DNA of 64,000 bases, from contig JAKAVT010000001.1 of the NCBI GenBank assembly GCA_021817165.1, positions 76,236-140,235 of the forward strand, written 5' to 3'. Both the position numbers and the translations under genes were made by a program. This stretch comes from Nanobdellota archaeon (GTDB lineage Archaea; Nanobdellota; Nanobdellia; Parvarchaeales; Parvarchaeaceae). The notes under the pieces are model-generated. The model made no database searches. It saw nothing but the letters and a program-made list of their open reading frames with translations, and was not told the DNA's origin. Positions 7,579 through 52,738 of the stretch are shown piece after piece; position 1 is the first letter of the stretch, and the number at the start of each line of letters is the position of its first letter.

Positions 7579-7700
7579 TGCAGAGGGAGGGATTTGAACC
7601 CTCGAGGGCGCTAAGCCACAGGATATCTTATTCTTTGCAAATACAAAGACAGATAAGGACCTTAAGTCCTGCACGTTGGGCCAAACTTCGCTACCTCTGC
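7579..7700 (-). tRNA. tRNA-Leu(TAA) with 36-nt intron at 37/38 (intron 7625-7660)
   Basis: Acceptor GCAGAGG/CCTCTGC-A, anticodon stem CAGGA/TCCTG, long variable arm, T-arm GAGGG-TTCAAAT-CCCTC; central helix CTTA/TAAG with 3-nt bulges. Confidence 0.95.
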
Positions 7701-44948: not shown

Positions 44949-45647
44949 TCAAACGAAAATGTCGTCTACGTTGTGGTCTTTGCCGTGCGAAACGCAGATA
45001 AGATCAGGCTTCAGTTCTTTTATTTTATTTATGCTGTTTATAAGCGAGATATAATCCTCAAAAAACGGCGGCGATTCAAGCCTTTTGTTAGTTCCCTGTA
45101 ATAAGTCTCCCACTATCGCCGTCTTTGAATTTACAAGGTAGATTGATATAGAGTCTTTTGTATGGCCAGGAGTCTCGATTATCTTTGCGTTTATCCCCAT
45201 CTCCTTTGGAAAAACGCCCTCCTTCAATTTCATATCCGGCTTTATATATTTGGGTTTAGTGAATTTAAGCATAATCGGCAGAAAAATTGCAAAGACCTTG
45301 TTCTTAAACGATTTTGAATTTGAAACCGGCATCAGAATGCCTTTGCTTCCATCAACGTACGGTATTCCGTTCTCGTTTATGCCTATGTGGGCATTGCTCA
45401 TTTTTTGCAACGCATATGCACTCCCAAAATGATCGATGTGTGAATGCGTCAATAGGATGTACTTTATATCGCTCACGGATTTTCCTATGCTGTTTATGTA
45501 CGCGATTATCTTCTTTTCGCTGTTTGGCAAACCTGTGTCTACCAGTATCAAACCATTTTTAGATTCTATTAGAAATACTTTTACGGTTCCTAGGTTTATT
45601 TCATGCAGCACATCATTTATTTTTATCCCTAAGCTTTTCTTTGCCAT
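44949..45647 (-). CDS. Metallo-beta-lactamase-fold hydrolase
   Basis: LVDTG, THSHIDHFG, TPGHT, VGDL, HG motifs; probable start MAKKSL (45647). Confidence 0.85.
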   Translation of the reverse strand: MAKKSLGIKINDVLHEINLGTVKVFLIESKNGLILVDTGLPNSEKKIIAYINSIGKSVSDIKYILLTHSHIDHFGSAYALQKMSNAHIGINENGIPYVDGSKGILMPVSNSKSFKNKVFAIFLPIMLKFTKPKYIKPDMKLKEGVFPKEMGINAKIIETPGHTKDSISIYLVNSKTAIVGDLLQGTNKRLESPPFFEDYISLINSINKIKELKPDLICVSHGKDHNVDDIFV

Positions 45648-45772
45648 ATATAGTAATTTTCTCTCAACTCTAACGCTTTGTTCCAAACTACCCTGCTGCA
45701 GCCGAAATATTTTGAAAACAGTTCTTGCTGCTTTTCATTTGGGTACAACCTGAATTTGTATGCTGTTAACAT
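45629..45772 (-). pseudogene. tnpB: Truncated IS200/IS605-family tnpB (N-terminal HTH only, 47 aa)
   Basis: MLTAYKFRLYPNEKQQELFSKYFGCSRVVWNKALELRENYY matches the AYKFRLYP..Q...FGC.R.VWN.AL TnpB N-terminus; GAGGT SD-like motif at 45784-45788. Confidence 0.85.
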
Positions 45773-45890: not shown

Positions 45891-45953
45891 GCGCTCAGAA
45901 GCTACCCTACTCTTCATCGCAAAGCTCAGCAGGTGTTCATTTCATCATTGCGC
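45891..45953 (-). ncRNA. Box C/D methylation-guide sRNA
   Basis: GCGCA-ATGATGA (C)-AATGAACACCTG-CTGA (D')-GCTTT-GCGATGA (C')-AGAGTAGGGTAGCTT-CTGA (D)-GCGC; terminal GCGC/GCGC stem. Confidence 0.85.
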
Positions 45954-45956
45954 CGA

Positions 45957-46514
45957 TTAACCAAGATGGATTGGTGGAATTGAATTTGAGTTATTTGATG
46001 AATTTAAAACTTCAAAAAATGCGAGTAAATACGTTGAATTAGAGGTTATAGAATTGAGGTTTGTGTGGGAAATTGGCTCTTGAATCGGTGATAATTTACC
46101 ATTGCTGCCAACGTAAAATAAATTCCATGAGCCATTGAATAGATTAGCGCATAATGGGTAAACAAACTGATCTGAGAATATGCACTGTATATTACCGTTA
46201 GAAACATTATATGTAATATTACCTTGACTAAGAATGCTTTCAGTTAAATTGAGCATATTGGATATGTTAGATGCTATCAAATTTGACACTGGAACTGAAA
46301 CGACTGAGGAGATTATCGTTTCCGAGTAACCAGGTTGTAAATTAATAACATTTCCATTTAACGTTGAATTAGGTCTCAGAGCAGGAGTTGGTACAGCTAT
46401 ATAATAAGTAATCGGAGAGGTACTGGAAACGTGGGGAAAGAAGAAGAAAATAGACGAGACAAAGGCTATCGCTATAAACAATGCTGCAGCTTGTTTTAAT
46501 CTTGCATTTACCAT
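45957..46514 (-). CDS. Secreted or membrane-anchored hypothetical protein
   Basis: Basic plus hydrophobic N-terminus, Asn/Ser-rich body, Cys pair. Confidence 0.75.
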   Translation of the reverse strand: MVNARLKQAAALFIAIAFVSSIFFFFPHVSSTSPITYYIAVPTPALRPNSTLNGNVINLQPGYSETIISSVVSVPVSNLIASNISNMLNLTESILSQGNITYNVSNGNIQCIFSDQFVYPLCANLFNGSWNLFYVGSNGKLSPIQEPISHTNLNSITSNSTYLLAFFEVLNSSNNSNSIPPIHLG

Positions 46515-51655: not shown

Positions 51656-52738
51656 ATGGATGAATTTGAGATACTGAACCTTATAAAGTACCTGGAAGGG
51701 ATAAAAGGTAGACATACTGAATTAGTAACGGTTTACGTACCTGGGGGATTTAACCTGGATTTAATACGCTCGCAGTTGGCGGACGAAAAAAGCACTGCCA
51801 CGAATATAAAGGACAGGAACAACAGAAAAAATGTAATAGACGCATTAGAGAAGATAATGAACGAGCTAAAGCTCATACGCAATACTCCTGAAAACGGATT
51901 GGTAATATTCTGCGGAAACGTTTCCGAGAGGGAGGGAGAACCTGATATAAAGGTGTGGGAGATAGTGCCGCCTGCCAAATCGGACATAAGGCTTTATCGC
52001 TGCGATCAGAGGTTTATAACAGAGCCTTTAAAACAAATGTACCACCAAGAAAACGCATACGGCCTGATAGTTCTTGACTTAAGAGAAGCGACTTTCGGGA
52101 TATTGGAAGGCTCCAGGATAGACATGCTTAAGCACATAAAATCGCTGGTGCCGGGAAAATTCTCAAAGGGTGGACAGTCGGCGATGCGTTTTTCAAGGGA
52201 AAGAGAAGGCTTGATACGGGACTTTTACAAGGAGATAGCCGACACCGCAAAGGACCTTTTCTTTAACAAAGAGCTTAAAGGCATAATAATCGGAGGGCCT
52301 GGGCCTGCAAAAGACAATTTCATTGAAAGCGGATACCTTATAACTAACCTGAAAAACCTCATAAAGGGCATGAGGAGCATAAGCTATACCGATGAAAGCG
52401 GTCTTAGAGAACTGGTTGAAAAAAGCAAGGACATACTTGCAAACGAAAGGATTACCATAGAAAAAGAATACGTGCAGAAGCTTTTGAGTAGCATAGCTAG
52501 AAACGACAACATGTCGGTATACGGAGAAGATGCCGTAAGAAAAGAGCTAGAAAACGACAACGTGGATCTTCTTTTGATTTCCACAGGGATGGATGAAAAC
52601 AAGAAAAACGAGTTTTATTATCTTGGAAAGGGAAAAAACATCGACGTACAAGTAATATCCAAAGATTCCAGCGATGGCCTTCAGCTTTTTAATCTTGGAG
52701 GGGTCGCAGCATTTTTGAAAAGGCCTTCAAAACAATGA
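51656..52738 (+). CDS. prf1: Peptide chain release factor aRF1
   Basis: RHTELVTVY, NIKD (NIKS-like), YRCD, KGGQS motifs. Confidence 0.95.
   Translation: MDEFEILNLIKYLEGIKGRHTELVTVYVPGGFNLDLIRSQLADEKSTATNIKDRNNRKNVIDALEKIMNELKLIRNTPENGLVIFCGNVSEREGEPDIKVWEIVPPAKSDIRLYRCDQRFITEPLKQMYHQENAYGLIVLDLREATFGILEGSRIDMLKHIKSLVPGKFSKGGQSAMRFSREREGLIRDFYKEIADTAKDLFFNKELKGIIIGGPGPAKDNFIESGYLITNLKNLIKGMRSISYTDESGLRELVEKSKDILANERITIEKEYVQKLLSSIARNDNMSVYGEDAVRKELENDNVDLLLISTGMDENKKNEFYYLGKGKNIDVQVISKDSSDGLQLFNLGGVAAFLKRPSKQ

What the first reader, a model, noticed from the sequence alone, without database searches (positions are those of the whole stretch)
45891..45953. Unannotated box C/D sRNA predicted to methylate the 23S peptidyl-transferase centre
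Seen: complete C, D', C' and D boxes with a terminal GCGC stem, starting 4 nt after the upstream stop codon (probably processed from that mRNA) and lying just upstream of the IS relic. The D guide TAGGGTAGCTT is complementary over 11 nt to AAGCUACCCUA, the sequence before GGGAUAAC in archaeal 23S as I recall it; the N+5 rule points to the U equivalent to E. coli U2438. The D' guide complement is CAGGUGUUCAU, and N+5 falls on a U before GUUC, as for A-loop Um2552, but this needs G at 2551 and is speculative. It implies an active fibrillarin/Nop5/L7Ae system in a reduced genome.
Basis: partly seen in the sequence, partly recalled or inferred. Interest (0 to 1): 0.68.

Follow-up and report, generated by a model that had tools for sequence, protein, structure and literature searches.

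The report
Conserved rRNA methylation guide RNA
This is a real but ordinary archaeal box C/D guide RNA, not detected by Rfam at its curated thresholds; it most likely directs sugar methylation of two uridines beside the ribosome's catalytic centre in a tiny acid-mine archaeon, and it looks like the only such guide in that genome.

Summary
On the minus strand, window 45953 to 45891 encodes a 63-nt box C/D sRNA: a GCGC/GCGC terminal stem, C box AUGAUGA, D' CUGA, C' AUGAAGA, D CUGA and two 12-nt guides.

- **Targets.** Both guides match the organism's own 23S rRNA. The D guide pairs over 10 Watson-Crick pairs plus one G·U and points to E. coli U2438. The D' guide pairs over 10 Watson-Crick pairs and points to A-loop U2552.
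- **Conservation.** A covariance model finds one copy in 36 of 40 genomes of the order (Parvarchaeales, ARMAN-4/5 group) and matches in 226 of 401 genomes of the phylum. Boxes and guide cores are conserved. Loop, flanks and stem vary, with compensatory changes.
- **Covariation.** Four guide positions change together with their 23S targets in sister genera.
- **Machinery.** Fibrillarin, Nop5 and L7Ae are present. No true RrmJ/FtsJ was found.
- **Copy number.** Motif scans find no other canonical C/D sRNA in the 762-kb assembly.
- **Closest known.** Nanoarchaeum equitans sR10 (D' guide) and sR14 (D guide) carry the same two guides on separate RNAs.

Verdict: a new member of a known kind, of modest interest.

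The parts
45950..45953 (-). 5' arm of the terminal stem (GCGC), RNA nt 1-4
   Evidence: Pairs with 45891-45894. Compensatory variants GGGC/GCCC, CCGC/GCGG, UUGC/GCAA and GUGC/GCAC occur in homologues. All 4 pairs show changes on both sides and 98% of cells are paired.
45942..45948 (-). C box AUGAUGA, RNA nt 6-12
   Evidence: Read. AUGA is invariant in the order. Position 6 covaries with D-box position 1: G:C in 36 distinct sequences and U:A in 16.
45930..45941 (-). D' guide AAUGAACACCUG (12 nt)
   Evidence: Forms 10 contiguous Watson-Crick pairs with own 23S 2538-2547 (CAGGUGUUCA). N+5 falls on own U2542, which is E. coli U2552. The core GAACACCU is invariant in the genus. Guide position 8 changes A to G where the 23S target changes U to C in genera g2 and g3.
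45926..45929 (-). D' box CUGA
   Evidence: Read. GA is invariant in the order. Position 1 pairs with C' position 6: C:G in 51 distinct sequences and A:U in 3.
45918..45925 (-). Variable linker GCUUUGCG between D' and C', with a 2-bp mini-stem
   Evidence: Length and sequence vary between genomes. The mini-stem GC/GC covaries (GU/AC, GG/CC and others), with 94% of cells paired.
45911..45917 (-). C' box AUGAAGA (one departure from RUGAUGA, at position 5)
   Evidence: Read. Position 5 varies freely (A, U, G or C) across homologues, while UGA and GA are kept within the genus.
45899..45910 (-). D guide GUAGGGUAGCUU (12 nt)
   Evidence: Forms 10 Watson-Crick pairs plus 1 G·U with own 23S 2424-2434 (AAGCUACCCUG). 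N+5 falls on own U2428, which is E. coli U2438. The core AGGGUAGCU is invariant in the genus. Guide positions 4, 9 and 10 change together with the 23S target in g2 and g3.
45895..45898 (-). D box CUGA
   Evidence: Read. It becomes AUGA in the lineages whose C-box position 6 is U.
45891..45894 (-). 3' arm of the terminal stem (GCGC), followed by UUUUAU
   Evidence: Read. A T-run directly follows the RNA here and in most close relatives (alignment).
45957..46514 (-). Upstream 185-aa ORF (signal or transmembrane start, rich in NxS/T, no Pfam match); probable host transcript
   Evidence: A homologous ORF ends 1-3 nt before the sRNA in G011, G016 and G028, and a stop codon lies 1-6 nt before the sRNA in all 11 genomes compared, ARMAN-4 and ARMAN-5 among them.
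45629..45772 (-). TnpB N-terminal relic (not part of the sRNA), inserted between the sRNA and the MBL-fold gene in this genome only
   Evidence: PF12323, 70 bits. In the three relatives whose ORFs were listed (G011, G016, G028) the MBL-fold gene follows the sRNA after 35-48 nt without this insert.

Best explanation
This is a box C/D small RNA, the archaeal counterpart of a snoRNA, which acts in trans as a double methylation guide for 23S rRNA.

**Shown**
- The RNA has the complete box architecture with 12-nt spacers.
- It is a conserved gene, found as one copy per genome in the order and mostly one elsewhere in the phylum.
- Its K-turn and terminal-stem pairs covary.
- Both guides match the organism's own 23S and have co-evolved with it.
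- The three core proteins are encoded.

**Inferred mechanism**
- The RNA is transcribed with the upstream 185-aa gene and trimmed to the L7Ae-protected core.
- L7Ae binds the C/D K-turn and the C'/D' K-loop. A Nop5 dimer then brings two fibrillarin copies.
- The D guide pairs with own 23S 2424-2434 (E. coli 2434-2444, the 3' strand of helix 74), and U2428 (E. coli U2438) is 2'-O-methylated.
- The D' guide pairs with own 23S 2538-2547 (E. coli 2548-2557, helix 92 and the A-loop), and U2542 (E. coli U2552) is methylated.
- No RrmJ/FtsJ gene was found, so this RNP would be the only route to the near-universal Um2552.
- The two sites lie 114 nt apart and bracket helices 89-91 and the catalytic ring. 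Binding of both guides at once may also assist local folding.
For: - **Architecture and uniqueness.**
- **Guide-target duplexes with a Watson-Crick pair at N+5.** Numbering was checked against E. coli rrlH and the Rfam LSU alignment.
- **Significance of the duplexes.** A single 10-11-bp match reaches only about P 0.02-0.06 in shuffles. But both guides hit the same 114-nt stretch of domain V, and one hit is the known Um2552 site.
- **Distribution.** One copy in 36 of 40 genomes of the order and matches in 226 of 401 genomes of the phylum.
- **Conservation pattern.** Boxes and guide cores are conserved; linker, flanks and stem vary.
- **Structural covariation.** 96.6% of cells are paired, all 8 pairs show changes on both sides, and 0 of 500 shuffles reach the observed values. 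The C-box position 6 / D-box position 1 pair switches between G:C and U:A; this pair was not in the model.
- **Guide-target covariation.**
  - g2: 23S CAGGUGUCCA with guide position 8 G, and 23S AAGUUACCCU with guide position 4 A.
  - g3 (G038): 23S AAGCUACCUCGG with guide GCGAGGUAGCUU, changed at positions 9 and 10.
- **Proteins.**
- **No true FtsJ.**
- **Literature.** U2552 is predicted to be guided by C/D sRNAs in 5 of 7 archaea, and double guides typically aim at sites within about 100 nt (PMC4644070). N. equitans sR10 and sR14 carry near-identical guides.
Against:
- No Rfam family reaches its gathering score; the best is 24.7 bits against a threshold of 45.
- In G008 the 23S has C at target position 8 while the guide keeps A. 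In G038 one A·C mismatch remains at D' position 7.
- Four of the 40 genomes of the order gave no hit, among them one rated 100% complete (G020).
- The D' duplex has a mismatch at position 11.
- The predicted fold is no more stable than shuffles (z = 0.29). That is usual for this RNA class, so it gives no independent support.
Confidence: 0.92

Rival explanations
1. The RNA binds the two 23S segments only as a folding chaperone for domain V, and no methyl transfer occurs at one or both sites.
For: A chaperone role for double guides has been proposed (PMC4644070). The two targets bracket the lineage's heavily rewritten catalytic ring.
Against: The N+5 pair is a Watson-Crick A-U in both guides in every homologue seen. 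Spacers are the optimal 12 nt. Fibrillarin, the methyltransferase itself, is kept in 39 of 40 genomes. U2552 is methylated in nearly all organisms, and no RrmJ is present here.
Confidence: 0.04
2. It is a cis-acting element of the upstream mRNA: an L7Ae-binding K-turn in the 3' UTR, or a terminator structure, that controls the 185-aa gene rather than acting as a trans-acting guide.
For: It starts 1-6 nt after a stop codon in all 11 genomes compared, and the gene upstream is the homologous ~185-aa ORF where this was checked. L7Ae is reported to bind mRNAs (title and abstract of PMC5539422, seen).
Against: The most conserved parts are the two 'spacers', not only the K-turn, and these track changes in 23S rRNA. 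In the 25 hits outside the order that were read, from 25 other genomes of the phylum, the sequence flanking the RNA is not conserved although boxes and guide cores are. N. equitans carries the same guides on two other sRNAs.
Confidence: 0.02
3. It is a chance motif or a decaying relic carried by the neighbouring IS200/IS605-type element.
For: A TnpB relic lies 118 nt downstream.
Against: The three relatives whose ORFs were listed have the sRNA but not the IS relic at this place. The pattern occurs once in the genome and never in the reversed genome. Conservation is phylum-wide and comes with covariation.
Confidence: 0.01

Closest known systems
Nanoarchaeum equitans C/D box sRNAs sR10 and sR14 (Randau 2012; Dennis et al. 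2015, PMC4644070, Additional files)
   Same: The Neq sR10 D' guide AGUGAACACCCU is predicted to target 23S U2826 of their alignment, which is E. coli U2552. It is near-identical to the D' guide here (AAUGAACACCUG) and to that of other phylum members (AGUGAACACCCG).

The Neq sR14 D guide AAGGAGUAGCUG is predicted to target U2712. With their constant offset of 274 (my inference) this is E. coli U2438. It matches the D guide here (GUAGGGUAGCUU) and in other members (…GGAGUAACUG).
   Different: In N. equitans the two guides sit on two different sRNAs, each partnered with another guide or with none (sR10 D targets U2880; sR14 D' has no predicted target). Here, and in the other phylum genomes whose hits were read, the two guides are combined in one double-guide RNA. 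N. equitans has 26 C/D sRNAs; this genome shows only one recognisable.
Archaeal double-guide box C/D sRNAs in general (Sulfolobus sR1-sR29, Pyrococcus sR1-sR46; Rfam RF01152 sR1, RF00095 snoPyro_CD)
   Same: Same box order, 12-nt spacers, terminal stem and K-turn, the N+5 rule, two targets roughly 100 nt apart in a functional centre of rRNA, and the same three core proteins. Sulfolobus acidocaldarius sR7 also targets the U2552 equivalent.
   Different: There is no sequence-family membership: every Rfam C/D model scores below its gathering threshold. The host is a mesophilic to moderately thermophilic acidophile with a genome of about 0.8 Mb and apparently a single guide RNA, not the dozens seen in hyperthermophiles.
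RrmJ/FtsJ (RlmE) in bacteria and many archaea; Spb1 with snR52 in yeast
   Same: They produce the same product, 2'-O-methyl U2552 in the A-loop (established knowledge; cites Caldas 2000 and Hansen 2002).
   Different: Those are stand-alone protein enzymes. Here no true FtsJ-domain gene was found in the genome or the order, and the site is specified by RNA guidance.

Membership tests
Archaeal box C/D sRNA (2'-O-methylation guide) | C box (RUGAUGA) near the 5' end and D box (CUGA) near the 3' end | tested here: met
   AUGAUGA and CUGA. The GA dinucleotides are invariant in the order.
Archaeal box C/D sRNA (2'-O-methylation guide) | Internal D' and C' boxes, giving two guide units | tested here: met
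   D' is CUGA. C' is AUGAAGA, with one departure at the variable position 5.
Archaeal box C/D sRNA (2'-O-methylation guide) | Spacers of about 12 nt between the C and D' boxes and between the C' and D boxes | tested here: met
   Both are exactly 12 nt.
Archaeal box C/D sRNA (2'-O-methylation guide) | Terminal stem and K-turn pairing between the C and D boxes, supported by covariation | tested here: met
   All 4 stem pairs show compensatory changes. C-box position 6 and D-box position 1 switch between G:C and U:A. 0 of 500 shuffles reach the observed score.
Archaeal box C/D sRNA (2'-O-methylation guide) | Guide complementarity of at least 9-10 bp to a stable RNA of the same organism, with a Watson-Crick pair at N+5 | tested here: met
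   D guide: 10 Watson-Crick pairs plus 1 G·U. D' guide: 10 Watson-Crick pairs. Both match own 23S and both have A-U at N+5.
Archaeal box C/D sRNA (2'-O-methylation guide) | Guide and target co-evolve | tested here: met
   Four compensated positions in genera g2 and g3, and two uncompensated exceptions in G008 and G038.
Archaeal box C/D sRNA (2'-O-methylation guide) | L7Ae, Nop5 and fibrillarin are encoded | tested here: met
   Fibrillarin is present in 39 of 40 genomes of the order.
Archaeal box C/D sRNA (2'-O-methylation guide) | Accumulates as a stable RNA of about 50-70 nt | not testable with these tools
Archaeal box C/D sRNA (2'-O-methylation guide) | 2'-O-methylation present at the predicted nucleotides | not testable with these tools
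   This needs RiboMeth-seq, primer extension or mass spectrometry.
Any curated Rfam C/D family (e.g. RF00095, RF01152) | Score at or above the family's gathering threshold | tested here: not met
   The best scores are 24.7 bits (threshold 45) and 23 bits (threshold 45). It belongs to the class, not to any curated family.

The most novel reading that the evidence does not exclude
This double guide may be the only C/D guide RNA of Parvarchaeales and a core RNA gene of much of the DPANN phylum Nanoarchaeota (GTDB sense).

If so, nop5 and the fibrillarin gene are kept in a genome of about 0.8 Mb to serve one 63-nt RNA and two uridines. That would be a natural minimal C/D system. It would have replaced RrmJ for the near-universal Um2552. 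By clamping helix 74 and helix 92 it might also help fold the catalytic centre, which this lineage has rewritten.
Probability: 0.35. Interest if true: 0.5.

Novelty: new member of a known kind. Interest (0 to 1): 0.3.

Why it matters
It adds a well-supported RNA gene that Rfam's curated thresholds, and hence annotation that relies on them, do not detect, in ARMAN-type archaea and many other DPANN genomes. It also predicts two specific rRNA modifications.

It explains why these reduced genomes keep fibrillarin and Nop5 and can do without RrmJ.

If it is really the sole guide, it offers a very simple natural system for studying what RNA-guided methylation at the A-loop and helix 74 contributes to ribosome assembly. 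The lineage is of added interest because its catalytic-centre rRNA is unusually divergent. The RNA class and the mechanism themselves are textbook.

Tried and rejected
- **Too permissive a null.** My first null test allowed unlimited G·U pairs. I redid it with at most one.
- **blastn versus covariance model.** The blastn-type search found homologues in the genus only, in 24 of its 33 genomes plus one partial hit in G028 that proved genuine on reading. The covariance model extended this to the order and phylum.
- **False hit.** A weak blastn hit in G008 (L029) was not a homologue. The true G008 copy came from the model.
- **Other C/D sRNAs in the genome.**
  - C box, D box and stem only: 5 real against 3 null hits.
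  - Half-units: 65 real against 56 null hits.
  - Very relaxed full pattern: 9 real against 7 null hits.
  - Nothing beyond this locus rises above the null.
  - One half-unit with 11 Watson-Crick pairs to 23S (window 52371-52392) lies inside a 364-aa ORF and is taken as chance.
- **Intron-containing tRNA.** The 122-nt tRNA at window 7579-7700 has no C/D boxes that I could see in its intron.
- **Promoter.** I looked for a conserved promoter upstream of the sRNA and found none in an 11-genome alignment. The sigma-70-type scan is not informative for archaea.
- **Literature.** I found no paper that mentions Parvarchaeum together with C/D sRNAs in the held library.

Full report
**What is there**

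Read on the minus strand, window 45953 to 45891 is 5'-GCGC-A-AUGAUGA-AAUGAACACCUG-CUGA-GCUUUGCG-AUGAAGA-GUAGGGUAGCUU-CUGA-GCGC-3', 63 nt in all. This is the full archaeal box C/D layout:
- a 4-bp terminal stem;
- C box, 12-nt spacer, D' box;
- an 8-nt linker;
- C' box (one departure, at its variable fifth position), 12-nt spacer, D box.

The RNA starts at the fourth nucleotide after the TAA stop of a 185-aa ORF on the same strand (45957-46514). A T-run follows it. A TnpB N-terminal relic (PF12323, 70 bits) lies 118 nt downstream, and a metallo-beta-lactamase-fold gene follows that.

Rfam at gathering thresholds reports only tRNAs in the window. At relaxed thresholds about twenty C/D families hit exactly this place and strand, the best being snoPyro_CD at 24.7 bits and sR1 at 23 bits.

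**More than chance**

A relaxed regular expression for the whole C-D'-C'-D architecture matches this locus alone in both strands of the 762-kb assembly. It matches nothing in the reversed genome.

**Organism and machinery**

The window is part of a 15-contig, 762-kb assembly with about 39% G+C, rated about 90% complete. Homologues of the upstream ORF lie on scaffolds of Candidatus Parvarchaeum ARMAN-4 and ARMAN-5, which are the same contigs as G006 and G007 of the genus. So this is a Parvarchaeum species (Parvarchaeales; phylum Nanoarchaeota in the GTDB sense).

The genome encodes:
- fibrillarin (251 bits; NCBIfam 264 bits);
- Nop5, directly upstream of fibrillarin (133 bits);
- L7Ae (82 bits).

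Fibrillarin is found in 39 of 40 genomes of the order. The FtsJ/RrmJ domain gives no hit in this genome. In the order it gives only weak partial hits of 32 bits or less, which look like other Rossmann-fold methyltransferases.

**Targets**

I located the organism's own 23S (contig C9:196-3073), its 16S, and 36 tRNAs.

| Guide | Own 23S segment | Pairing | N+5 nucleotide | E. coli equivalent |
|---|---|---|---|---|
| D | 2424-2434, AAGCUACCCUG | 10 Watson-Crick + 1 G·U | U2428 | U2438 (helix 74) |
| D' | 2538-2547, CAGGUGUUCA | 10 Watson-Crick | U2542 | U2552 (A-loop) |

I fixed the E. coli equivalents by reading E. coli rrlH directly and by the Rfam LSU alignment. The N+5 pair is a Watson-Crick A-U in both guides.

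Taken alone, a 10-11-bp match is only moderately rare in shuffled guides, about 2-6%. What makes the pair convincing is that both guides hit the same 114-nt stretch of domain V, and one hits the best-known conserved 2'-O-methyl site in the large subunit.

This lineage has G2551 and A2557 in helix 92.

**Conservation**

A DNA search found full-length copies in 24 of 33 genomes of the genus, plus a partial hit in a twenty-fifth (G028) that proved to be the complete sRNA on reading. A covariance model built from the 25 copies found exactly one copy in 36 of 40 genomes of the order, covering all three genera. It found matches in 226 of 401 genomes sampled across the phylum, mostly one per genome.

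The conservation pattern is the one expected of a guide RNA:
- The GA dinucleotides of all four boxes are invariant in the order, and so are the guide-core stretches CACCU and GGUA; within the genus the whole cores GAACACCU and AGGGUAGCU are invariant.
- The linker, the flanks and the stem sequence change.
- The 25 best hits outside the order keep both guide cores (GUGAACACC and GUA[A/G]CU). The pairing of U2552 with U2438 is therefore an old, widespread design.

**Structural covariation**

I counted pairs on a 62-sequence alignment made with the model. All eight proposed pairs show changes on both sides, 96.6% of cells are paired, and no shuffle of 500 reaches the observed values.

The model already contained the terminal and linker stems, so those counts lean towards it. 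It did not contain the pair between C-box position 6 and D-box position 1. That pair nevertheless switches cleanly between G:C (36 distinct sequences) and U:A (16). The D' position 1 / C' position 6 pair behaves the same way. This is the Watson-Crick pair that closes the K-turn.

**Guide-target covariation**

I collected 23S domain V segments from 20 genomes of the order and compared them with the sRNAs of the same genomes.

| Genomes | 23S target | Guide |
|---|---|---|
| g2 (G001, G003, G005), A-loop | CAGGUGUCCA (U to C at target position 8) | D' guide position 8, A to G |
| g2 (G001, G003, G005), helix 74 | AAGUUACCCU (C to U at position 4) | D guide position 4, G to A |
| g3 (G038), helix 74 | AAGCUACCUCGG (positions 9 and 10 changed) | GCGAGGUAGCUU, compensated at both positions, plus a new pair at position 11 |

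Two changes are not compensated. G008 has an A·C at D' position 8. G038 has an A·C at D' position 7, while its relative G039 carries G there.

Position 1 of the D' guide varies (G or U) without any change in the target. This fits structural work showing that the nucleotide next to the box need not pair (established knowledge).

**Genomic context and biogenesis**

In G011, G016 and G028 the gene order is the same on one strand:
1. an amino-acid permease;
2. a secreted protein of about 185 aa, rich in NxS/T;
3. the sRNA, starting 1-3 nt after that protein's stop codon;
4. after 35-48 nt, the MBL-fold gene.

A stop codon lies 1-6 nt before the sRNA in all eleven genomes aligned, ARMAN-4 and ARMAN-5 among them. 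The TnpB relic lies between the sRNA and the MBL gene in this genome; none of the three relatives whose ORFs were listed has it there. The sRNA is therefore not part of the insertion element.

An alignment of the 67 nt upstream from eleven genomes shows no conserved promoter-like element. Co-transcription with the upstream gene, followed by trimming, is thus the most economical reading. This is inference only; it fits the co-transcription and 3'-end overlap of sRNA genes described for other archaea (from my recollection of that literature, not checked here).

**Is it the only guide?**

Three progressively looser motif scans, each with a reversed-genome null, gave these counts:

| Scan | Real | Null |
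|---|---|---|
| C box, D box and stem | 5 | 3 |
| Half-units | 65 | 56 |
| Very relaxed full pattern | 9 | 7 |

Only this locus combines good boxes with good rRNA complementarity. The loosest pattern would, by my reading of them, match the N. equitans sRNAs listed in the supplement of PMC4644070 that I saw; I did not run it on them. So canonical sRNAs should not have been missed. Non-canonical guides, or genes in the missing ~10% of the genome, cannot be excluded.

**Comparison with what is known**

- Guiding of the U2552 equivalent by C/D sRNAs is predicted in five of seven archaea studied. Double guides aimed at sites within about 100 nt are the rule and have been proposed to act also as folding chaperones (PMC4644070; PMC7994747).
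- The closest published relatives are N. equitans sR10 and sR14. The sR10 D' guide AGUGAACACCCU is assigned to alignment position U2826, which is E. coli U2552. The sR14 D guide AAGGAGUAGCUG is assigned to U2712. Their stated equivalences give a constant offset of 274, which makes U2712 equal to E. coli U2438; that last step is my inference.
- In N. equitans the two guides are on separate RNAs. Here they share one RNA.
- U2438 lies in a conserved motif next to the catalytic centre and has been mutated in Halobacterium halobium (Leviev et al. 1994, as cited in PMC4665369).

**Side observation: the 23S catalytic centre**

The organism's 23S departs strongly from the archaeal consensus around the catalytic ring:
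- GGGAUAAC becomes GGGCGUAAG.
- CCUCGAUGUC becomes CCACAGUCUU.
- The sarcin-ricin loop reads GAAA instead of GAGA.

The two catalytic-ring strings recur in every 23S fragment of the order that covers them, across three genera; the sarcin-ricin loop lay outside the stretch compared. A stray contig in one bin has the canonical sequence. Earlier notes of this scan already describe this (e1-5230238). It is relevant here only because the two guide targets bracket the rewritten region and the guides follow the lineage's own sequence.

**Limits**

- The predicted fold is no more stable than shuffles. That is normal for this class.
- Four genomes of the order gave no hit, among them G020, which is rated 100% complete. 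This is unexplained.

**Verdict**

This is a genuine box C/D methylation guide that Rfam does not detect at its curated thresholds. It very probably specifies Um at E. coli positions 2438 and 2552 of 23S rRNA. It is a new member of a well-known class, with published near-equivalents of both guides. Its modest extra interest lies in being apparently the sole guide of a minimal genome and a widely conserved DPANN RNA gene.

Noticed in passing
G000 contig C9:196-3073 (locus L001 2620-2900), outside the window: The organism's 23S has a strongly non-canonical catalytic ring: GGGAUAAC becomes GGGCGUAAG, and CCUCGAUGUC becomes CCACAGUCUU. Helix 92 has G2551 and A2557. The same catalytic-ring strings occur in every 23S fragment of the order that covers them, whereas a stray contig in G035 has the canonical sequence. 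This scan has already noted it (e1-5230238).
   Followed up: partly
L001 about 2835-2850 (own 23S sarcin-ricin loop): The sarcin-ricin loop reads UAGUACGAAAGGAAC, that is, a GAAA tetraloop in place of the near-universal GAGA (E. coli G2661 to A).
   Followed up: no
window 7579-7700 (-): Rfam calls a 122-nt tRNA gene with an intron of about 50 nt here. ARAGORN did not call it in this range. I saw no C/D boxes in the intron.
   Followed up: partly
window 45629-45772 (-): A 47-aa N-terminal fragment of TnpB (PF12323, 70 bits) lies between the sRNA and the MBL-fold gene in this genome. In the three relatives whose ORFs were listed, that gap is only 35-48 nt.
   Followed up: partly
window 45957-46514 (-): A 185-aa ORF with a hydrophobic N-terminus, many NxS/T sequons and no Pfam match is conserved directly upstream of the sRNA in the genus. 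Its function is unknown.
   Followed up: partly
window 52371-52392 (+): The unit TGAGGA-GCATAAGCTATA-CCGA has 11 Watson-Crick pairs to 23S around 880-890. It lies inside a 364-aa ORF and has no partner half-unit, so it is probably chance.
   Followed up: partly
L095:1379-1438 (G090, another family of the phylum): A second, tandem copy of the sRNA lies about 60 nt upstream of the main copy. It has the same D' guide but a different D guide, an example of guide-module duplication and drift.
   Followed up: no
G020 (same genus, rated 100% complete): The covariance model gives no hit, although fibrillarin is present and the helix 74 target is unchanged. The first nucleotide of its A-loop target differs (GAGGUGUUCA).
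   Followed up: no
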